Source: Escherichia phage 4A7
Sequence record: NC_049946.1
Direction: 5' to 3' (one strand)
DNA: 49,168 nt
Positions within the stretch are counted from its first letter, which is position 1, and each line of letters begins with the position of its first letter. Below are positions 32,993 to 42,732 of the stretch, piece after piece. The notes under the pieces were generated by a model, which was not told the origin of the DNA, did no database searches, and was given only the letters and a program-made list of their open reading frames with translations. A program made the translations under genes and the position numbers.

Positions 32993-33289
32993 TTATACCT
33001 CTGAATCAATATCAACATGGTGGTGAGCAATGGTTTCAACCATGTACCGGATGTGTTCTGCCATGCGCTCCTGAAACTCAACATCGTCATCAAACGCACG
33101 GGTAATGGCTTTTTTGTTGGCCCCGCAGCGTTGCAAATGATCGATGCAGAGTGATTCAAACAGGTGCTGTGGAAGACCTTTTTCCATGTCGTCTGCCAGT
33201 TCTGCCTCTTTCTCTTCACGGGCGATCTGCTGGTAGTGACGCGCCCAGCTTTGAGCCTCAAGACGATCCTGAATGTAATAAGCGTTCAT
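32993..33289 (-). CDS. gam: RecBCD inhibitor Gam (98-aa short form)
   Basis: Matches lambda Gam residues 41-138 as recalled ([21 protein letters not shown]...HVDIDSEV). Confidence 0.9.
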
Positions 33290-33364
33290 GGCTGAACTCC
33301 TGAAAATGGCTGTGAAAATATCGCCTGCGAAATGCCGGGCTGATTAGGTAAACAGGAAAGGGGA

Positions 33365-33775
33365 TTAGTGATTCAGGCCGTTGCCGCGTCCGTCGAGAAA
33401 AACTTCCACGAGCAAATCACGGGTATAAGTGCGCTCGATGCCGCGATGCAGATAAAGCCGTCCGCGTAAATTAGCTGATGCAGTCCAGGTACCATCTTTG
33501 TGTTTGACCAGCATTCCTGGCATGACCGCACCGCGATTAACGGTCTGCGTTCCGTAATGTTGATGAACCATAAAAACTCCTGCCCGTAAGCTGGGCTGCT
33601 GAACATATAGAGACTTCTGCGCGTATTCAGGCGGTGGATGGCCGCCGGTTGTCATAACTAAGCCGCCTCGTTGAAGCGACTGAGGTATGAGGTGTTGAGT
33701 TGATTTCAGCTGGTCACACCGACGTTCACGCGTCCGCTTCACCCCTCGCACTCCCCGGAGCCTGCTGAAATTCAA
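33365..33775 (-). CDS. hypothetical protein, first ORF downstream of the putative pL (start uncertain; the listed ORF begins at TTG and an internal ATG is at 33655)
   Basis: Occupies the N/kil/cIII position; Arg-rich N-terminal extension; no lambda N similarity recognised. Confidence 0.35.
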
Positions 33776-33849
33776 GCTGCGGATCTAAGCGGTCATCGCA
33801 ACGGTGAATCAGGTGATTGCCGTATCGTTGTGTTGTTGCGACATGGTGA

Positions 33850-33895
33850 TAATAGCTATTGTTATTGGCTGTATCAATACTTATTGCTATTGATT
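33850..33895. promoter_or_regulatory. putative oL/pL operator region
   Basis: GCTATTGTTAT and ATTGCTATTG motifs here recur in the cI-cro intergenic region (36281-36321); location left of the cI-proximal cassette mirrors lambda oL. Confidence 0.35.
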
Positions 33896-34009
33896 GATGT
33901 GTTTTGATATTAACTGTTTGATAGCAAAAAGAATTAATTTTGTGACTTGTATCGCATAGCGATAACTGAAGGGAGGATGTGGTGGTTTTTCGAACGGTTT
34001 GTGTGATGA

Positions 34010-34042
34010 GGGGACAAAAGAAAACCCGGCACGGTGGCCGGG
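34010..34042 (-). terminator. intrinsic terminator ending the cI-cassette transcript (timm-like)
   Basis: On the minus strand: stem CCCGGC/GCCGGG with loop CACCGT, followed by TTTTCTTTTG, 5 nt after the stop of the 125-aa gene. Confidence 0.5.
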
Positions 34043-34046
34043 ATTC

Positions 34047-34424
34047 TTACGCAGGTAGGTAAAGATATGATTGTGGTGGCTTAATATTACTACCTAGAGC
34101 AGAGATAGGAATTGGTTCTTTATATCTTTCCACTTCACCAATTTTTATTGCGTAGGCCTTTTCTCTACCTGAATAATATGAGTCATAAAATTGCTTAGAA
34201 ATACCTGCGTGTTTTTCCGTCTTTTTCCAAAGAGATTCCGGTTCGTCACTTAGTATTGATTCAATACGGAATTGACCAACAACTTTACCTAATGGCATCG
34301 TGGCATAAATAACAACGGTGCTAATTTGCGGATTTTTGAATATACCTTTACGAAACTCGAACCGCTTTGTTCCGTTCAATATTTTTTCTGCAAACTCAGG
34401 CTTAATGGATAATAAAACTTTCAT
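34047..34424 (-). CDS. ASCH-domain (PUA-like fold) protein, cassette gene 2
   Basis: 125 aa; N-terminus MKVLLSIKPEFAEKILNGTKRFEFRKG carries the ASCH-type GxKxxExR signature; AT-rich codon usage; overlaps the upstream gene by 23 bp. Confidence 0.6.
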   Translation of the reverse strand: MKVLLSIKPEFAEKILNGTKRFEFRKGIFKNPQISTVVIYATMPLGKVVGQFRIESILSDEPESLWKKTEKHAGISKQFYDSYYSGREKAYAIKIGEVERYKEPIPISALGSNIKPPQSYLYLPA

Positions 34425-35475
34425 TTATCTTGCCTAACTCGATGATCTTTAAGAACTGCTCATTTGTGAGTTTAAAGTGACTCCATCGGAATGCACGCGA
34501 ACCATTTAGCCCCACATGATCTATTAAAATAGCACGATTGGGTCTCTTTGGCAAAGACAGATTGTATGTGAATCTTATAATGAAAGGGTATCGACGTTCT
34601 TTATAGATTTTTCTGAGTTCATCTTCAGAAAATACGCTAAAACGAATACAATAGTCTACAAAACTATCTTCGCTTAAAAATTCAGAAATATTTTTTACGC
34701 TCTCAACTACACATAATGTACTGGCTACAGAACGATAGCGAGCTGGCCCTTTTTTGTCTCCGGTTCTATAGATGACAATGATATCTCCTCTTTTCATTCC
34801 CATCACAGAACGCATTCCACATATGTAAATTTTATGAATGCTGTTAGCATGGGATATATCTTTGACAATATCTGGTGATTCATTTACAAGTTTTGAATCA
34901 GGGAATAGTCTAGTGTGATATTCGGGATAAATCGCCAGTAAATATTTGTTGGCCCTTGATGTCATTATTCGAGGGTAATCTAATAAAATATCACCATAAG
35001 GCTCATGCAAAGACCTCGCATATACAAACTCTTTCCCGTTATGTGTTTCTTTTTCACCATGAATGTAAAATCCGTACGTTTGGAAAAGTTTTATTAGATG
35101 GACGTGTTTGTCGAAAACAGTAACATAAATATCATCAGATTTTGATGAAAATGCATGGTCAAACGCTTTTTTTAGAAATCGTTGTCCGCGAAGGGTGCCT
35201 TTAGATTCAAATTTGAATGTTCCTATCTTTAGATGACGTCCTGGTGGGAGCGCTGGATTAATGTCATTTGCATCATCATTTTCTTTTAGATACATAAAAC
35301 CTTCGATTTTATGCTTGTCATCATAGAGCACATAAGCTGATTCTCCTTCTCTGGCTTTTTTTTCTAACCAAAGAGGAAACTCTTTATAATCTTTTTTTAA
35401 AGAGTCAAAAAATGGGTCATTGTGATCAAAATCAGAGAATTTCTCATATTTTAAAGTATCCATTAAGTTCTCCAT
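34402..35475 (-). CDS. unknown 353-357-aa protein, cassette gene 1 (likely start at the Met at 35463 with a GGAG RBS)
   Basis: Long AT-rich ORF immediately downstream of cI on the same strand; C-terminal half has a PUA/EVE-like pattern (KRGDIIVIYRTGDKKG...VVESVK); no catalytic motif recognised. Confidence 0.6.
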   Translation of the reverse strand: MENLMDTLKYEKFSDFDHNDPFFDSLKKDYKEFPLWLEKKAREGESAYVLYDDKHKIEGFMYLKENDDANDINPALPPGRHLKIGTFKFESKGTLRGQRFLKKAFDHAFSSKSDDIYVTVFDKHVHLIKLFQTYGFYIHGEKETHNGKEFVYARSLHEPYGDILLDYPRIMTSRANKYLLAIYPEYHTRLFPDSKLVNESPDIVKDISHANSIHKIYICGMRSVMGMKRGDIIVIYRTGDKKGPARYRSVASTLCVVESVKNISEFLSEDSFVDYCIRFSVFSEDELRKIYKERRYPFIIRFTYNLSLPKRPNRAILIDHVGLNGSRAFRWSHFKLTNEQFLKIIELGKINESFIIH

Positions 35476-35543
35476 TCTAAAATGAATAATTAAGTTGTTT
35501 TACTGAATGAGCACAATGCCCGGTTGATAATTTTTAATTGGTA

Positions 35544-36236
35544 CTATCCATGCTTCCTATACGTCTGCGGCATGCTCCCAATAACTTTCCCGAAGATAAA
35601 TACCCGGTTCATCTCATCTTTCTCGATCGGGTCCCACGGTGAGTAGCTTTTGTTATCAGAGATAACCAGCAGCTTATCCTTCATCATTTGCAGGCGCTTT
35701 ACATGGGCTGTGTCGTCGTACAGAAACGCATAGATACCATCACCGTCGAAAGATTTAACCGTGATATCAACGAATAGAAGATCACCAGGTTCAATCGTTC
35801 CTGACATGCTGTCACCGCGTACGTTAATGATGCGGATATTTTCTGCCTTCCTACCATCGAACATGTGACGAGCATCGTCAAACGAGTACTCAACCGAGCG
35901 TAGAACTTCTACAAACTCACGGTTGATGACTCCCGGCCCGGCACTCACTTCTATATCAAGAACGTCAATCTTGAAGTATTTGGGATGGTTGGCAGTAGGC
36001 TTCCCTAATTGTTGACCGTCATTTCTCATCGGGCCTATGCCTGATGAGAGCCACTCTGTTCGAACACCCAATGCATTAGCTATTTCAACAATTTTTGTTG
36101 AGCCGCGCGCGTTGCCGCTTGTCAGTCTCCAGATTGTGGGTTGAGCTACGCCAGACGCCTTTGCAAGAGCGCCTTGAGACATTCCAGATTGTTCCATCGC
36201 TAGGTTTAAGCGATCAGCAAGAGTTTCTTTTTTCAT
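35544..36236 (-). CDS. cI: CI-type repressor (N-terminal HTH, C-terminal S24 LexA-like peptidase)
   Basis: HTH (QGALAKASGVAQPTIWRL), then the S24 catalytic motifs GDSM and the downstream Lys (HVKRL). ATG at 36236; the listed ORF extends to a TTG at 36272. Confidence 0.8.
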   Translation of the reverse strand: MKKETLADRLNLAMEQSGMSQGALAKASGVAQPTIWRLTSGNARGSTKIVEIANALGVRTEWLSSGIGPMRNDGQQLGKPTANHPKYFKIDVLDIEVSAGPGVINREFVEVLRSVEYSFDDARHMFDGRKAENIRIINVRGDSMSGTIEPGDLLFVDITVKSFDGDGIYAFLYDDTAHVKRLQMMKDKLLVISDNKSYSPWDPIEKDEMNRVFIFGKVIGSMPQTYRKHG

Positions 36237-36248
36237 AAGTTTTAATTT

Positions 36249-36330
36249 ATACGCTTGCGTATTGATGGTCAAAACACGTTTTGCTATTGTTATGATTAAT
36301 ACGCATTGCTATTATTTATTCATTGTAATA
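36249..36330. promoter_or_regulatory. putative oR/pR-pRM operator region
   Basis: Perfect palindrome ATACGCTTGCGTAT at 36249-36262 plus GCTATTGTTAT / ATTGCTATT repeats shared with the putative oL; lies between divergent cI and cro. Confidence 0.4.
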
Positions 36331-36346
36331 CCAATAGGAATTAATA

Positions 36347-36574
36347 ATGACAAATCAAACCATTCAACTCGCAATCAGTATTACAGGTAGTCAAAAACGA
36401 CTGGCAGATCTATGCGGTGTAGCCCAGCCCACTGTTTGGCGTTGGCTACACGGTGGCGGAATTGATGCCCGCTATGTAATGAAAATTGTCTCAGCCACTG
36501 GTGGAAAGATTAAACCAGCAGATATTCGTCCCGACCTCGCACCATTGTTTAACGCGAGTAATTCTGCCGCCTAA
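36347..36574 (+). CDS. cro: Cro-like HTH regulator (YdaS-like)
   Basis: 75 aa, HTH (RLADLCGVAQPTVWRWL), divergent from cI. Confidence 0.65.
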   Translation: MTNQTIQLAISITGSQKRLADLCGVAQPTVWRWLHGGGIDARYVMKIVSATGGKIKPADIRPDLAPLFNASNSAA

Positions 36575-36598
36575 TCTGCGGCGTTAACTGATAAGGCA

Positions 36599-37144
36599 AT
36601 GACTATGCAACCACTTACATACCAACAGACTAGCGGATTTAGCCCGACTGCGGTGATAAATCGTTCTCAAACAAAACAGGCGCCAGGCCACGAAAAAATC
36701 CGTGATGCCGTTCGCGCCTGGTCGGCTGCAGATAATCAGGATGTTGTTGCCGCACTCATTGTGAATGAGTATCGGGAGCAGGGCGGCGGCACCATCGATT
36801 TTCCTGATGATGTCAGCCGTGCACGCCAGAAGCTGTTCCGCTTCCTCGATAACAAATTCGATTCTGAAAAATACCGAAATAACGTGCGTGAACTGACCCC
36901 GGCAATTCTGGCGGTACTACCGCTGGAATATCGCGGCCACCTGGTTGAGCAGGATAGCTTCATGGCTCGGCTGGCTGAAATGGAAAAGGAACTCAGTGAG
37001 GCAAAACAGGCTGTCATTCTCAACGCACCACGCCACCAGAAACTGAAGGAGATGAGTGAAGGCATTGTGTCGATGTTTCGTGTGGACCCGGATCTGGCTG
37101 GTCCACTGATGGCGATGGTCACCACCATGCTGGGGGCAATATGA
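36599..37144 (+). CDS. YdaT-like protein (CII functional analogue)
   Basis: 181 aa; shares YdaT motifs as recalled (EYREQGGG and LTPAILAVLP); lies between cro and O. Confidence 0.55.
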   Translation: MTMQPLTYQQTSGFSPTAVINRSQTKQAPGHEKIRDAVRAWSAADNQDVVAALIVNEYREQGGGTIDFPDDVSRARQKLFRFLDNKFDSEKYRNNVRELTPAILAVLPLEYRGHLVEQDSFMARLAEMEKELSEAKQAVILNAPRHQKLKEMSEGIVSMFRVDPDLAGPLMAMVTTMLGAI

Positions 37145-39157: not shown

Positions 39158-39224
39158 TGAAACAGGTGAGTTGAGTTCAAACTGTAGTACAATTCTCTCC
39201 AGTTTGAACAGGAAAGAATATGCT

Positions 39225-39557
39225 ATGAACCCTTATATTTATCTTGGTGGTGCAATACTTGCAGAGGTCATTGGTACAACCTTAATGAAGTTTTCAGAAG
39301 GTTTTACACGGTTATGGCCATCTGTTGGTACAATTATTTGTTATTGTGCATCATTCTGGTTATTAGCTCAGACGCTGGCTTATATACCTACAGGGATTGC
39401 TTATGCTATCTGGTCAGGAGTCGGTATTGTCCTGATTAGCTTACTATCATGGGGATTTTTCGGCCAACGGTTGGACCTGCCAGCCATTATAGGCATGATG
39501 TTGATTTGTGCCGGTGTGTTGGTTATTAATTTATTGTCACGAAGCACACCACATTAA
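39225..39557 (+). CDS. emrE: small multidrug resistance efflux transporter EmrE
   Basis: 110 aa, matches E. coli EmrE as recalled (MNPYIYLGGAILAEVIGTTLMKFSEGFTRLWPSVGTIICYCASFWLLAQTLAYIPTGIAYAIWSGVGIVLISLLSWGFFGQRLDLPAIIGMMLICAGVL...); emrE is DLP12-associated in K-12. Confidence 0.9.
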   Translation: MNPYIYLGGAILAEVIGTTLMKFSEGFTRLWPSVGTIICYCASFWLLAQTLAYIPTGIAYAIWSGVGIVLISLLSWGFFGQRLDLPAIIGMMLICAGVLVINLLSRSTPH

Positions 39558-39566
39558 AAATAATTT
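39552..39566. repeat. 15-bp direct repeat CATTAAAAATAATTT, left copy (overlaps the emrE stop)
   Basis: Identical 15-mer recurs at 41625-41639; the two copies bracket the ybcK segment. Confidence 0.5.
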
Positions 39567-39812
39567 ATTTTTAAACGACTAAAATATGGAGGTTCGTATA
39601 TTTGTATGGGCCTCGTTTTATGCTTTTTGTTAATGTCTTTAGTTTTTATTCATTCTTTTGATCTTTCAAGACCATGGTGTAAGAAAATTGCAATACGATT
39701 ATTGTTGTATATTCAAGATAATGTGACCTTAATTGTCTTTTTAAATAAAAATTAAACAAAAATCATATCTCACCACTAAGGTTTATAAAAGCATACTTTA
39801 GCAGGTGTCACC

Positions 39813-41339
39813 ATGAAAAAAGCCATAGCATATATGCGATTTTCATCACCAGGTCAGATGTCTGGTGATTCATTAAACCGCCAGAGAAGGCTTATTACTG
39901 AATGGCTAAAGGTAAATAGTGATTATTACCTTGATACCGTAACGTATGAAGATTTGGGGTTAAGCGCATTCAATGGAAAGCATGCACAATCAGGAGCTTT
40001 TTCGGAATTTTTAGATGCTATAGAACATGGTTACATATTGCCAGGGACTACATTGTTAGTTGAAAGTCTGGACAGACTTTCAAGAGAAAAAGTCGGTGAA
40101 GCGATTGAGCGTCTGAAATTGATTTTGAATCACGGTATTGATGTTATAACTCTTTGCGATAATACAGTCTATAATATAGACTCATTGAATGAGCCATATT
40201 CATTAATAAAAGCCATACTTATAGCACAAAGGGCAAATGAAGAAAGCGAGATAAAGTCAAGTCGGGTTAAATTATCATGGAAGAAAAAACGGCAGGATGC
40301 ACTGGAATCAGGCACGATTATGACGGCGTCTTGTCCGAGATGGCTCTCATTGGATGACAAAAGAACAGCTTTTATTCCAGACCCCGACAGGGTGAAAACG
40401 ATTGAGCTAATTTTTAAACTCAGGATGGAAAGGCGATCATTGAATGCAATAGCTAAGTATTTAAATGATCATGCTGTAAAAAATTTTTCAGGAAAAGAAA
40501 GTGCATGGGGGCCTTCTGTAATTGAAAAATTATTAGCGAATAAAGCTCTGATAGGTATATGCGTACCTTCATATCGTGCAAGAGGGAAAGGGATAAGTGA
40601 AATCGCTGGCTATTATCCCAGAGTCATATCAGATGATTTGTTTTACGCTGTACAGGAAATTCGGTTGGCACCTTTTGGTATTAGCAATAGTAGCAAGAAT
40701 CCTATGCTAATAAATCTACTTCGAACAGTTATGAAGTGTGAGGCTTGTGGTAATACCATGATTGTTCATGCGGTATCTGGACGTTTGCATGGCTATTATG
40801 TTTGTCCGATGAGAAGATTACATCGATGTGACAGGCCATCAATAAAAAGAGATTTGGTTGATTATAATATCATTAATGAATTGCTTTTTAATTGTAGCAA
40901 AATTCAACCAGTTGAAAACAAGAAAGATGCTAATGAAACTTTAGAGTTAAAAATTATTGAGCTTCAGATGAAAATTAATAATTTAATCGTTGCATTGTCT
41001 GTCGCGCCTGAAGTTACCGCTATAGCAGAGAAAATAAGACTATTAGATAAGGAATTACGAAGGGCTTCGGTATCATTAAAAACTTTGAAGAGTAAAGGGG
41101 TGAGTTCACTTGGTGATTTTCATGCTATTGATTTAACCAGTAAAAATGGGCGAGAGCTATGTCGTACACTTGCCTATAAAATATTCGAAAAAATTATAAT
41201 TAATACAGATAATAAAACCTGTGATATCTATTTTATGAATGGCATTGTTTTTAAACACTATCCTTTAATGAAAGTAATATCCGCCCAGCAGGCGATAAGT
41301 ACTCTTAAATATATGGTTGATGGTGAGGTTTATTTTTGA
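39813..41339 (+). CDS. ybcK: large serine recombinase (YbcK-like)
   Basis: 508 aa; N-terminal resolvase/invertase catalytic domain (AIAYMRFSSPGQ...SLNRQ), central recombinase domain, Cys-rich zinc ribbon (CEACGN...CPMRRLHRC) and C-terminal coiled coil; AT-rich. Confidence 0.85.
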   Translation: MKKAIAYMRFSSPGQMSGDSLNRQRRLITEWLKVNSDYYLDTVTYEDLGLSAFNGKHAQSGAFSEFLDAIEHGYILPGTTLLVESLDRLSREKVGEAIERLKLILNHGIDVITLCDNTVYNIDSLNEPYSLIKAILIAQRANEESEIKSSRVKLSWKKKRQDALESGTIMTASCPRWLSLDDKRTAFIPDPDRVKTIELIFKLRMERRSLNAIAKYLNDHAVKNFSGKESAWGPSVIEKLLANKALIGICVPSYRARGKGISEIAGYYPRVISDDLFYAVQEIRLAPFGISNSSKNPMLINLLRTVMKCEACGNTMIVHAVSGRLHGYYVCPMRRLHRCDRPSIKRDLVDYNIINELLFNCSKIQPVENKKDANETLELKIIELQMKINNLIVALSVAPEVTAIAEKIRLLDKELRRASVSLKTLKSKGVSSLGDFHAIDLTSKNGRELCRTLAYKIFEKIIINTDNKTCDIYFMNGIVFKHYPLMKVISAQQAISTLKYMVDGEVYF

Positions 41340-41624
41340 GTAATAATCACTTTTTCAACCGTGCTATGGTATGAAAGTAAAGTAACTAATATGATATTAA
41401 CTATCTTGAACGAAGCGCCCTGAGCTATAGTTTTACTATAGGCACTGTCACTGGATGTTGGCATTCTTGCTCTAGTAGCTCAACAATACCCAATCACAAA
41501 ACAATTCACTGATAACAAACTTTGTGCACGTGCTTGGTTATGGCGAACAGGTGATGTTAACCTCTTGCCAGAATGCCACTCCACTTCATTAAGTATCTGA
41601 GCACCGAGAGGCTGGTCACGCCCC

Positions 41625-41639
41625 CATTAAAAATAATTT
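41625..41639. repeat. 15-bp direct repeat CATTAAAAATAATTT, right copy
   Basis: Perfect match to 39552-39566. Confidence 0.5.
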
Positions 41640-41663
41640 CTTTTGAATCGAGTGAAATAGGTT

Positions 41664-41690
41664 AGCCCGCATAAGTGCGGGCTGCTTTTT
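41664..41690 (+). terminator. intrinsic terminator between convergent ybcK-side and esterase genes
   Basis: Stem AGCCCGC/GCGGGCT with loop ATAAG, followed by GCTTTTT. Confidence 0.55.
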
Positions 41691-42732
41691 ACAGGTCAGC
41701 GTTTGTTTTTTGTTGTTGGGTAGCGGTTTTTATGGGGGTTCCCAGGTTTTTAGTAAACCACTCAACAACTCTGTTTATAATAATTGGCTGATACCATGTA
41801 TTATCGCCATGCTCGGCCCCTTCTACCAGCACGTACTCAGCGTTATCACCGTTCTTCTTCAACATCCTGAATAGTTTGGCGCTTTGCTCAGGTGAAACCA
41901 GAGTGTCTTTGCTACCATGCATAATAAGAAATGGGGGTTTTACTCCTTTCATATGTCCGATTGGACTGGCGTTTAGCGCTTTTTCTTTTGACGCTGTGAT
42001 GGGGGCTCCCGCAAAATTTCTGAATGCAGGGCCATTGATCATTAAGGCTTCGGTTACGGCAGGAGAGCGATGAACCTCCTGCACTGATTCAGGGAACCCC
42101 TCGCCAATATTCAACAAGTCAGAAATCCCATAAAGTGTGGCAACTGCCTGAACATCTGAGGATTGCTGAAGAAAGTCACCTTTATCAAAGGTTTTGTCAC
42201 CATTTGTAGTTCCCATCATCTGGGCAAGCCATCCACCGGCAGAGTCACCCAGAACTCCGATTCTTTGAGGATCAATCCCATAATTGCTGGCATGCTCTCT
42301 CAGGTAACGTATTGCAGCTTTTCCATCCTCAACTGGTGCTGGAAATGTATCAGGAATTGTTCTGTATTCTACAGCGGCCACAACAAAACCAGCTTCTGCC
42401 AGAGCCATTCTCATTTCAATAAATTTGTCATGTTCAGAAGACATGAATCCGCCGCCGGGATAATAAATAATGGCTGGTTTTAAATCATTTGTTCGCGGGA
42501 CAAGAACTGACATGTGAAGCTGTCTGACAGAACGAGTTCCTTTTATCTGGGAATAAACAACATCACCAATGAGATCGACCTGGTTTCTGGTCGGTGAAAC
42601 ACTAATGATATCTGCACCCGGGGTGTAACCAGGAAGATTAGTCTGGACAGGTGTTGCACAACTCCCGACCGACATGGCCATTGACATACCATACAATAGT
42701 GTTGCAGATGATAATATCTTGTTAATTTTCAT
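41689..42732 (-). CDS. alpha/beta-hydrolase fold esterase/lipase, probable lipoprotein
   Basis: 347 aa; signal peptide with lipobox-like VGSC; HSL-family motifs YYPGGGF and GDSAGG (nucleophile elbow GxSxG); C-terminal His. Confidence 0.7.
   Translation of the reverse strand: MKINKILSSATLLYGMSMAMSVGSCATPVQTNLPGYTPGADIISVSPTRNQVDLIGDVVYSQIKGTRSVRQLHMSVLVPRTNDLKPAIIYYPGGGFMSSEHDKFIEMRMALAEAGFVVAAVEYRTIPDTFPAPVEDGKAAIRYLREHASNYGIDPQRIGVLGDSAGGWLAQMMGTTNGDKTFDKGDFLQQSSDVQAVATLYGISDLLNIGEGFPESVQEVHRSPAVTEALMINGPAFRNFAGAPITASKEKALNASPIGHMKGVKPPFLIMHGSKDTLVSPEQSAKLFRMLKKNGDNAEYVLVEGAEHGDNTWYQPIIINRVVEWFTKNLGTPIKTATQQQKTNADL

What the first reader, a model, noticed from the sequence alone, without database searches (positions are those of the whole stretch)
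34010..35475. AT-rich two-gene cassette in the rexAB-equivalent slot (between oL and cI): candidate lysogen-expressed defence or exclusion system
Directly downstream of the CI repressor gene, on the same strand with only a 68-bp gap and no intervening terminator, lie a 353-357-aa ORF and an overlapping 125-aa ORF, followed by an intrinsic terminator on the minus strand (34010-34042) and then the putative oL repeats. This is the layout lambda uses for cI-rexA-rexB-timm-oL. Both genes are visibly AT-rich (codons dominated by AAA, AAT, GAT, TTT) against GC-rich lambda-like neighbours, which suggests acquired cargo. The small protein carries an ASCH-type signature (MKVLLSIKPEFAEKILNGTKRFEFRKG, i.e. 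GxKxxExR), a PUA-like fold; PUA-like domains (ASCH/EVE/YTH) bind modified nucleotides and occur in modification-dependent defence contexts. The large protein matches nothing I recognise; its C-terminal half shows a second PUA/EVE-like pattern (KRGDIIVIYRTGDKKG...VVESVK) and I see no nuclease or ATPase motif. The hypothesis is a prophage immunity-region defence module, possibly sensing modified nucleic acid.
Basis: partly seen in the sequence, partly recalled or inferred. Interest (0 to 1): 0.85.

Follow-up and report, generated by a model that had tools for sequence, protein, structure and literature searches.

The report
Prophage GNAT-EVE/ASCH (GevT/GevA) cargo cassette
The two AT-rich genes behind the phage repressor gene are real and sit where lambda keeps rexAB, but they are an already catalogued pair (an acetyltransferase fused to a modified-base reader domain, plus a small ASCH protein; GevT/GevA in GenBank, defence candidate PDC-M11 in PADLOC) whose mechanism is still unproven.

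Summary
Two overlapping minus-strand genes (353/357 aa and 125 aa; GC 0.35 against about 0.50 in the flanks) lie between cI and a strong intrinsic terminator, followed by oL/pL.

Both proteins are 100% identical to those annotated "GevT toxin" and "GevA antitoxin" in phage PhiR47_2. They match PADLOC candidate PDC-M11 (2e-133 and 7e-52). They belong to the GNAT-EVE + ASCH operons described computationally in 2013 and 2020.

The cassette is swappable cargo:
- The same cI carries other cargo in sister phages.
- The same cassette follows other repressors.
- In 74 of 78 evaluable viral loci the pair lies downstream of a CI-type repressor on the same strand.
- It is present in 275 of 5,426 complete E. 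coli genomes.

The most likely function is a lysogen-expressed toxin-antitoxin-like defence or exclusion module that acetylates a nucleic-acid-linked target. That function is inferred, not shown. Novelty is low; the open question is the mechanism.

The parts
34402..35463 (-). gevT: 353-aa GNAT-EVE fusion protein. An alternative upstream ATG at 35475 gives 357 aa.
   Evidence: ORF. PADLOC PDC-M11A 2e-133. PHROG 6345 1e-186. 1,618 homologue clusters, 349-362 aa, named N-acetyltransferase by NCBI. 100% identical to GevT of PhiR47_2. AF2 model has pLDDT 86 and pTM 0.84.
34999..35463 (-). GNAT acetyltransferase domain of GevT (about residues 1-155).
34405..34956 (-). PUA-like (EVE/ASCH-type) reader domain of GevT (about residues 170-353).
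34047..34424 (-). gevA: 125-aa ASCH protein.
   Evidence: Pfam ASCH 2.5e-8. PADLOC PDC-M11B 7e-52. PDB ZmASCH 5gus/5guq 8e-16. The GxKxxEFRK motif, Y40 and the PPQS119 motif are invariant. 100% identical to GevA of PhiR47_2.
34402..34424 (-). 23-nt overlap of the gevT 3' end and the gevA 5' end (candidate translational coupling).
   Evidence: Sequence. The same 23-nt overlap is seen in Vibrio, Klebsiella, E. coli, Bosea and Pseudomonas loci; the Haemophilus locus overlaps by 29 nt. In the IMG/VR loci the overlap is mostly 23 or 29 nt.
34015..34042 (-). Intrinsic terminator ending the cI-gevT-gevA unit (timm equivalent).
   Evidence: The terminator segment alone recurs in about 80 E. coli genomes that lack the cassette and in sister phages with other cargo.
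35464..35543 (-). cI-gevT intergenic region with the SD GGAG (35470-35473). No promoter or terminator was called.
   Evidence: The region is not conserved among homologous loci apart from the SD and ATGGAT.
35544..36236 (-). cI repressor gene (HTH + S24), upstream on the same strand.
   Evidence: Pfam. A PRM-like TTGACC-17-TAAATT lies at 36272-36244, ending 7 nt before the ATG. Full-length copies occur in 719 E. coli genomes.
33849..33940 (-). oL/pL region: pL-like promoter and operator-like repeats shared with oR.

Best explanation
The cassette is a mobile two-gene module. GenBank calls it GevT/GevA. PADLOC lists it as candidate PDC-M11. Bell et al. describe this class as the GNAT-EVE + ASCH operon.

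It rides in the cI-to-oL cargo slot of a lambdoid phage. It is most likely transcribed in lysogens by read-through from the cI promoters and terminated at 34042-34015.

GevT joins a GNAT acetyltransferase domain to an EVE/ASCH-type PUA-like domain, a fold that in other proteins reads modified bases in DNA or RNA. GevA is a small ASCH protein with the same fold as GevT's reader domain. It is probably translationally coupled to GevT through the conserved gene overlap.

Proposed working:
1. GevT docks through its reader domain on a (modified) nucleotide in nucleic acid.
2. It acetylates the bound substrate. RNA, tRNA or aminoacyl-tRNA is the most likely target, and a DNA base is less likely.
3. 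This arrests growth or phage development.
4. GevA holds GevT in check in the uninfected lysogen. It could compete for the same ligand or surface, bind GevT, or enzymatically undo or degrade the product.
5. The result is a toxin-antitoxin-like exclusion or abortive-infection system that benefits the lysogen.

Shown here: gene structure, domain identities, family membership, cargo status and the association with repressor operons.
Inferred: transcription in lysogens, toxicity, substrate, the mode of neutralisation and defence itself.
For: - Identity: PADLOC PDC-M11A/B. Both proteins are 100% identical to the annotated GevT toxin and GevA antitoxin.
- Domains: GNAT. PUA-like EVE/ASCH reader. ASCH partner.
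- Class: described, with predicted toxin-antitoxin character and prophage location, in PMC7641849.
- Lysogenic expression logic: no terminator-like or promoter-like site was called in the cI-gevT gap, and a strong terminator lies after gevA. In 74 of 78 evaluable IMG/VR loci a CI-type repressor lies upstream on the same strand. These span at least 5 repressor families and include 186-type cI-int operons.
- Unit behaviour: 79 of 80 viral loci carry the ASCH gene overlapping gevT. In E. coli, 275 genomes have gevA and 275 have gevT. The Mantel correlation between the two proteins' distance matrices is r 0.86, exceeded by 0 of 2,000 permutations.
- Defence context: a V. cholerae homologue lies among type I-F Cas, SNIPE and SIR2 genes. 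Sister phages carry another PADLOC candidate (PDC-M63) in the same slot.
- Compatible with toxin-antitoxin logic: gevT is disrupted while gevA is intact in four independent cases (IS1, ISKpn26, a truncation, and fragments). No converse case was seen.
- RNA leaning: ZmASCH binds nucleic acid and cleaves ssRNA in vitro (PMC5615036). A GevA-like domain is fused to ribosomal protein L22. PIN RNase fusions occur in sister operons.
Against: - I could read no experiment showing toxicity, neutralisation or phage defence for this pair. The toxin/antitoxin labels are a GenBank annotation whose basis I could not see. No held paper contains both 'GevT' and 'antitoxin', or both 'GevAT' and 'phage'. The Brenes & Laub 2025 paper is not held.
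- PADLOC lists it only as a candidate.
- The gevT-only disruptions are too few to be significant. Among the 275 E. coli copies there were 2 insertions in gevT against 0 in gevA, and gevT is a target about 3 times larger.
- The antitoxin is not of the RHH type that neutralises known GNAT toxins, and the gene order is toxin first.
- In the alignment to PaiA, the usual catalytic Tyr of the FY-x-x-x-GF motif aligns with Phe in GevT. An invariant Tyr sits two residues later. Catalytic competence is therefore inferred.
- ZmASCH residue K53 is not strictly conserved in GevA.
- ZmASCH itself is not next to a GevT homologue.
- The substrate is entirely unknown.
Confidence: 0.5

Rival explanations
1. 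A pure addiction or stabilisation module. GevT/GevA is a toxin-antitoxin pair that penalises loss or decay of the prophage (or of the immunity region) and gives no protection against other phages.
For: It is annotated as toxin/antitoxin. The pairing is tight and the genes overlap. It sits in the repressor operon, so it is expressed only while the prophage is maintained. gevT disruptions occur with gevA intact.
Against: The slot is the one where lambda carries the exclusion genes rexAB. In sister phages that slot carries another defence candidate. A homologue sits in a chromosomal defence island with Cas, SNIPE and SIR2 genes rather than in a prophage. Chromosomally integrated prophages are not readily lost by segregation.
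Confidence: 0.15
2. A pro-phage or counter-defence function. GNAT-EVE acetylates modified nucleic acid or host factors to help the phage (for example against restriction), or manipulates host translation. This was floated for prophage GNAT-EVE proteins by Bell et al.
For: Bell et al. discuss this reading (PMC7641849). The gene would also be transcribed from PRE during establishment of lysogeny. Some homologues lie in inovirus-like contexts (L087, L097).
Against: It is placed behind the repressor gene and ahead of a terminator, so it is silent during lytic growth, when counter-defence is needed. Homologues also occur in non-phage defence islands. It is included in PADLOC as a defence candidate.
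Confidence: 0.1
3. A non-toxic modification or metabolic moron. GevT acetylates a small molecule, a protein or a host RNA as a lysogenic-conversion trait, and GevA is an accessory RNA-binding or hydrolase protein.
For: The closest GNAT structures are polyamine and N-terminal protein acetyltransferases (PaiA, Naa50, Ard1), not known GNAT toxins. No toxicity data could be read. NCBI names it simply N-acetyltransferase.
Against: The fusion to a nucleic-acid reader fold, the obligatory ASCH partner, the PIN-fused relatives and restriction-modification or defence neighbourhoods, and the depositor's toxin/antitoxin annotation.
Confidence: 0.12
4. A Rex-like modulator of the lysis-lysogeny switch, as reported for RexA, rather than an effector against other phages.
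For: Same slot and same operon as rexAB. The role of RexA in the lysogenic-to-lytic transition is cited in PMC12315714.
Against: There is no homology to RexA or RexB; PADLOC returns only PDC-M11 models. The same cassette works with many unrelated repressor types and outside phages, which argues against a switch-specific partner.
Confidence: 0.04

Closest known systems
GevT/GevA as annotated in Escherichia phage PhiR47_2 (GenBank PV340567.1), equal to PADLOC-DB v2 candidate system PDC-M11
   Same: Both proteins are 100% identical. The position between cI and kil is the same. Both PADLOC profiles match at full length.
   Different: Nothing at sequence level. The experimental basis of the names could not be read here.
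(PIN-)GNAT-EVE + ASCH operons (Iyer et al. 2013; Bell, Wolf & Koonin 2020, PMC7641849)
   Same: A GNAT N-terminal domain, an EVE-type PUA-like C-terminal domain, an adjacent ASCH gene, and a prophage location in gamma-proteobacteria.
   Different: This copy lacks the PIN domain and the AAA_17 ATPase gene found in some relatives. The ATPase is present in the Vibrio, Pseudomonas and inovirus-like loci.
Lambda rexA-rexB
   Same: The slot between cI and oL, the same strand as cI, a terminator before oL, lysogen-expressed cargo, and a two-gene unit.
   Different: No sequence or fold relationship. Rex is a DNA-binding sensor plus a membrane protein. This pair is a soluble acetyltransferase-reader fusion plus an ASCH protein.
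GNAT-type toxins of type II toxin-antitoxin systems (TacT, AtaT, KacT, ItaT), which acetylate aminoacyl-tRNA
   Same: The GNAT fold and a predicted toxin role. Many invariant basic residues are compatible with a nucleic-acid substrate.
   Different: The partner is an ASCH protein, not an RHH/DUF1778 antitoxin. The toxin gene comes first. There is an extra reader domain. None of these toxins appears among the listed structural matches.
Zymomonas mobilis ASCH (PDB 5GUQ/5GUS; Kim et al. 2017, PMC5615036)
   Same: It is a GevA homologue (E 8e-16). Y47 and S128 are conserved as Y40 and S119. It matches the PDC-M11B profile. It is also the best structural match of GevT's C-terminal domain.
   Different: It is not encoded next to a GNAT-EVE gene. 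Its Mg-dependent ssRNA cleavage is an in vitro result. K53 is not strictly conserved in GevA.
Modification-dependent restriction enzymes with EVE/PUA-like readers (VcaM4I, McrB N-domains, PD-T4-3)
   Different: The effector is an acetyltransferase, not a nuclease or GTPase.
DarTG (a reversible nucleic-acid modification toxin-antitoxin system that defends against phage)
   Same: Only as a working analogy: a nucleic-acid-modifying toxin paired with a partner that may reverse the mark.
   Different: No homology. Neither the mark, the substrate nor its reversal is shown for GevT/GevA.

Membership tests
PADLOC PDC-M11 (two-gene defence candidate) | Protein A matches a PDC-M11A profile | tested here: met
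   PDLC04419 E 2.1e-133, residues 6-356 against profile positions 10-356 of 357.
PADLOC PDC-M11 (two-gene defence candidate) | Protein B matches a PDC-M11B profile and is adjacent on the same strand | tested here: met
   PDLC04425 E 6.8e-52. The genes overlap by 23 nt.
PADLOC PDC-M11 (two-gene defence candidate) | Protects against phage | not testable with these tools
   Candidate status only. No experiment could be read.
GNAT-EVE + ASCH operon (Iyer 2013; Bell 2020) | N-terminal GNAT acetyltransferase fold | tested here: met
GNAT-EVE + ASCH operon (Iyer 2013; Bell 2020) | C-terminal EVE (PUA-like) domain | tested here: met
GNAT-EVE + ASCH operon (Iyer 2013; Bell 2020) | Adjacent ASCH-domain gene | tested here: met
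   Pfam ASCH 2.5e-8. Present in 79 of 80 homologous viral loci.
GNAT-EVE + ASCH operon (Iyer 2013; Bell 2020) | Binds a modified base | not testable with these tools
   Fold similarity only.
Toxin-antitoxin system | GevT is toxic and GevA neutralises it | not testable with these tools
   Only the GenBank annotation, plus four cases of gevT disrupted with gevA intact. This is compatible but not significant.
GNAT/RHH type II toxin-antitoxin (TacAT, AtaRT, KacAT) | RHH (DUF1778) antitoxin encoded upstream of the GNAT toxin | tested here: not met
   The partner is an ASCH protein encoded downstream.
Lambda Rex system | Position between cI and oL, on the cI strand, followed by a terminator | tested here: met
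Lambda Rex system | Homology to RexA or RexB | tested here: not met
   PADLOC, Pfam and PHROG return no Rex family.
ASCH ribonuclease (ZmASCH-like) | Sequence homology and conservation of Tyr47, Lys53 and Ser128 | tested here: inconclusive
   E 8e-16. Y40 and S119 are invariant. K53 aligns with G46/K47, and K47 is replaced by Met in several homologues.
   The only other domain is GNAT. No nuclease family or fold was found.
YqfB-type N4-acetylcytidine amidohydrolase (ASCH) | Catalytic Lys-Thr-Glu triad | not tested

The most novel reading that the evidence does not exclude
GevT is a reader-guided nucleic-acid acetyltransferase. It writes an acetyl mark on RNA or DNA, either on a base or on an aminoacyl-tRNA, at sites recognised by its EVE-like domain. 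GevA is a paralogous-fold eraser or decoy for that mark. This would make GevT/GevA a reversible nucleic-acid-acetylation immune system, analogous to DarTG with its ADP-ribosylation. It would be carried systematically in the repressor operons of unrelated temperate phages.
Probability: 0.2. Interest if true: 0.75.

Novelty: already known. Interest (0 to 1): 0.3.

Why it matters
This copy adds no new kind of system. The family was described computationally in 2013 and 2020. It is catalogued in PADLOC, and GenBank names an identical sequence.

Three points remain of value.
- The cI-to-oL slot of this lambdoid group is a true cargo hotspot. The same repressor occurs with at least three different cargos, so the slot is a place to look for further lysogen-expressed systems.
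- The pair is almost always inserted just downstream of a prophage repressor gene, in lambdoid and 186-like phages with unrelated repressors. This predicts expression specifically in lysogens.
- The toxin's reader domain and its partner share a fold. This suggests testable models of neutralisation by decoy or by erasing the mark.

If GevT proves to acetylate nucleic acid, it would be a new chemistry for phage exclusion.

Tried and rejected
No held paper contains both 'GevT' and 'antitoxin', or both 'GevAT' and 'phage'. 'PDC-M11' occurs only as a list entry for an O157:H7 strain. 'GNAT-EVE' occurs only in Bell et al.. Brenes & Laub 2025, the source of the PhiR phage panel, is not held under its DOI or PubMed id. 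The PADLOC web-server paper does not define the PDC systems.
- Curated families: Pfam and NCBIfam have no family for GevT.
- GevT C-terminal domain against GevA by sequence: hhalign gives only a weak local match (E 1e-3, probability 20%). The relationship rests on structure.
- Conserved 5' UTR or own promoter: rejected. The region upstream of gevT is unconserved apart from the SD and start codon. No promoter-like site lies in the gap, and promoter-like matches inside the genes are at chance level (8 found, 9.3 expected).
- Rfam scan of 33000-36800: only chance-level hits to eukaryotic families.
- ZmASCH as a true operon orthologue of GevA: rejected, because its neighbour is unrelated to GevT.
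- The 355-aa gene upstream of gevT in 186-like prophages as a GevT paralogue: rejected (BLASTP E 1.9). It has no PADLOC, PHROG or PDB-sequence hit.
- Programmed frameshift across the overlap: no canonical slippery heptamer was seen by eye.
Full report
**What is there**

On the minus strand, cI (35544-36236) has an HTH plus a Peptidase_S24 domain. After a 68-nt gap (80 nt to the likely true start) comes a 357/353-aa ORF, 34402-35475/35463. A 125-aa ORF follows at 34047-34424 and overlaps it by 23 nt.

No terminator-like site separates cI from the pair. A six-GC-pair hairpin with a T-tract lies at 34042-34015, directly after the small gene. It folds at -17.5 kcal/mol, z -3.6.

Further left is a pL-like promoter (33877-33849). 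Operator-like repeats there recur in the cI/cro intergenic region. A PRM-like promoter ends 7 nt before the cI ATG.

GC falls to 0.31-0.38 across the two genes, against 0.49-0.54 in the flanks.

The 353-aa start is the better call for three reasons. GGAG lies 6 nt upstream of it. Homologues are 349-362 aa. All aligned homologous loci begin with ATG-GAT behind a GGAG/GAGG.

**What the proteins are**

The small protein is an ASCH-domain protein.
- Pfam ASCH scores 2.5e-8, above the cut-off.
- Its closest solved relative is the Zymomonas mobilis ASCH protein (5GUS/5GUQ, E 8e-16). That protein binds nucleic acid and cleaves ssRNA in vitro (PMC5615036).
- Two of the three ZmASCH functional residues are invariant in the GevA family (Y40 and S119). 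The third is not strictly kept.

The large protein has no Pfam or NCBIfam family, but it is not an orphan.
- PHROG 13728 (acetyltransferase) covers residues 8-151.
- A family profile finds PaiA (1TIQ) at 2.2e-5.

The effector domain, an acetyltransferase, was missed.

GevT's reader domain and its partner GevA share the same best structural relative. They also share a weak sequence motif, K-x-L-L-[AS]-I-x-P-E-[YF] (hhalign E 1e-3, probability 20%).

**It is a known entity**

- PADLOC-DB profiles for the candidate system PDC-M11 match both proteins at full length (2e-133 and 7e-52).
- The window is 100% identical over this region to phages Lambda_4C10, D2, 1W and 3W.
- It is 99.2% identical to PhiR47_2 (PV340567.1), whose record annotates 'GevT toxin' and 'GevA antitoxin'. 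Both proteins are 100% identical to those.
- Bell, Wolf and Koonin (PMC7641849), following Iyer et al. 2013, described (PIN-)GNAT-EVE fusions. These are nearly always accompanied by an ASCH gene and sometimes by an AAA_17 ATPase. The authors predicted them to be toxin-antitoxin-like. They noted that the PIN-less form is common in prophages of beta- and gamma-proteobacteria.

I found no readable experimental paper on the pair. The paper behind the PhiR phage panel is not held.

**Cargo, not part of the immunity type**

- Phages PhiR30_1 and PhiR70_1 have a 98%-identical cI and the same terminator/oL boundary. Between them they carry PDC-M63A/B and three unrelated ORFs, respectively.
- Conversely, the identical cassette follows a cI that is 81-82% identical, paired with a cro that is 48% identical.
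- Among 5,426 complete E. coli genomes, 719 have a full-length cI of this type. 275 have gevA and 275 have gevT. All copies are chromosomal, and some are in O157:H7 strains.
- About 80 further genomes share only the terminator segment.

**A general rule for where the pair sits**

I surveyed the 80 best IMG/VR loci encoding a GevT relative (54-100% identity).
- 79 have the ASCH gene immediately downstream and overlapping. The remaining locus is cut off by a contig end.
- 74 of the 78 loci with enough upstream DNA have a CI-type repressor gene upstream on the same strand.
- 55 of those repressors are directly adjacent. 19 have one gene in between, and these are mostly 186-type CI with the integrase gene downstream.
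- The repressors include S24-type CIs of several immunities, small HTH-only CIs and 186-type CIs. Pfam checks were run on representatives.
- This sample is biased towards relatives of the query. The repressor queries were also taken from the same loci.

Outside phages, a V. cholerae homologue with an AAA_17/18 gene lies among type I-F Cas, SNIPE and SIR2 genes.

The gene overlap is 23 nt in Vibrio, Klebsiella, E. coli, Bosea and Pseudomonas, and 29 nt in Haemophilus.

The two proteins diverge in step (Mantel r 0.86 over 23 pairs, exceeded by 0 of 2,000 permutations). That pairing was inferred from equal contig lengths.

**How it most likely works**

Shown here: an acetyltransferase fused to a nucleic-acid or modified-base reader fold; an obligatory partner of the same fold; placement inside lysogenic repressor operons.

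Inferred:
1. In a lysogen the pair is made from the cI transcript.
2. GevT uses its reader domain to dock on nucleic acid and acetylates it, or an attached aminoacyl group.
3. GevA restrains it by competing, binding or reversing the mark.
4. Infection upsets this balance and blocks the invader or the cell.

I lean towards an RNA or translation target, roughly 45%, for four reasons.
- Known GNAT toxins acetylate aminoacyl-tRNA (established knowledge; cited).
- Sister operons carry PIN RNases.
- ZmASCH is an RNA-cleaving protein in vitro.
- A GevA-like domain is fused to ribosomal protein L22.

A DNA-base target in the manner of DarT is about 30%. Another substrate is about 25%.

Four independent cases of disrupted gevT with intact gevA fit toxin-antitoxin logic, but they are too few to test it. 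They are an IS1 insertion, an ISKpn26 insertion, a truncation and fragments.

**Against**

- No functional data could be read.
- The partner is unlike the antitoxins of known GNAT toxins.
- The canonical catalytic Tyr position aligns with Phe.
- ZmASCH is not encoded next to a GevT homologue.

**Verdict**

Novelty is 'already known'. Interest is modest (0.3) and rests on the unresolved mechanism and on the repressor-operon cargo rule.

Noticed in passing
window 33776-33877: There is no N-like gene or recognisable nut region between the pL-like promoter and kil, only an 11-codon ORF. The cro and cII equivalents are YdaS/YdaT-type (36347-37144). This lambdoid phage may not use N-type antitermination on the left arm.
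   Followed up: no
L011:3656-5010 and L012:3661-5183 (phages PhiR30_1 and PhiR70_1): With a 98%-identical cI and the same terminator boundary, the slot holds PDC-M63A/B in one phage. In the other it holds three ORFs (167, 195 and 136 aa) with no convincing PADLOC match. These three are unexplored candidate cargo.
   Followed up: partly
L006:4909-5976 (Klebsiella 186-like prophage); L010:4987-5991 (Haemophilus): A 355-aa protein sits between the 186-type CI gene and gevT. It has no PADLOC, PHROG or PDB-sequence hit, and no Pfam family is on record for it. A 25-28% identical 334-aa protein also directly precedes gevT in Haemophilus. It may be a third component of a variant system.
   Followed up: partly
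L003:4240-7953 (Vibrio cholerae): gevT, gevA and an AAA_17/18 ATPase gene form a three-gene unit next to a SNIPE-domain nuclease gene. They are flanked by type I-F Cas (Csy2-4) genes and a SIR2_2 gene, which is a dense defence island.
   Followed up: no
L087:1957-5447 and L097:1891-5953: The pair (with AAA_17 in L097) lies downstream of a 452-461-aa protein whose N-terminus looks Zot-like by eye. That suggests carriage by filamentous phages. The Zot identity was not tested.
   Followed up: no
window 34047-34424 (GevA): GevA matches the C-terminal 'unknown domain' of the NCBIfam equivalog 'ribosomal protein L22/unknown domain fusion protein' (NF008917, E 2.8e-15). This hints that this ASCH subfamily is linked to the ribosome or RNA.
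   Followed up: no
L098:3825-5447 (Zymomonas mobilis): The crystallised ZmASCH matches the PDC-M11B profile (3e-29). However, it is preceded by a 375-aa protein that is not a GevT homologue and has no Pfam family on record or PADLOC hit, so it may have a different partner.
   Followed up: partly
H12/H64 (E. coli E138), L017:1293-3554 (E. coli MSI001), L036, L015: gevT is interrupted by IS1, by an IS5-family ISKpn26, by a truncation, or is split into fragments, while gevA stays intact. No converse case was seen among the 275 E. coli copies.
   Followed up: partly
window 34010-34046: The terminator segment alone (33-40 nt) recurs in about 80 complete E. coli genomes that lack the cassette. This fits a conserved slot boundary at which cargo is exchanged.
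   Followed up: partly
window 39171-42732: There is further low-GC cargo to the right of ren: an ORF that looks EmrE/SMR-like by eye (39171-39557; PhiR47_2 carries an SMR note on the gene after ren), a 508-aa protein that looks like a large serine recombinase (39813-41339), and a 347-aa protein that looks like an esterase lipoprotein on the minus strand (41689-42732). No family search was run on any of the three.
   Followed up: no
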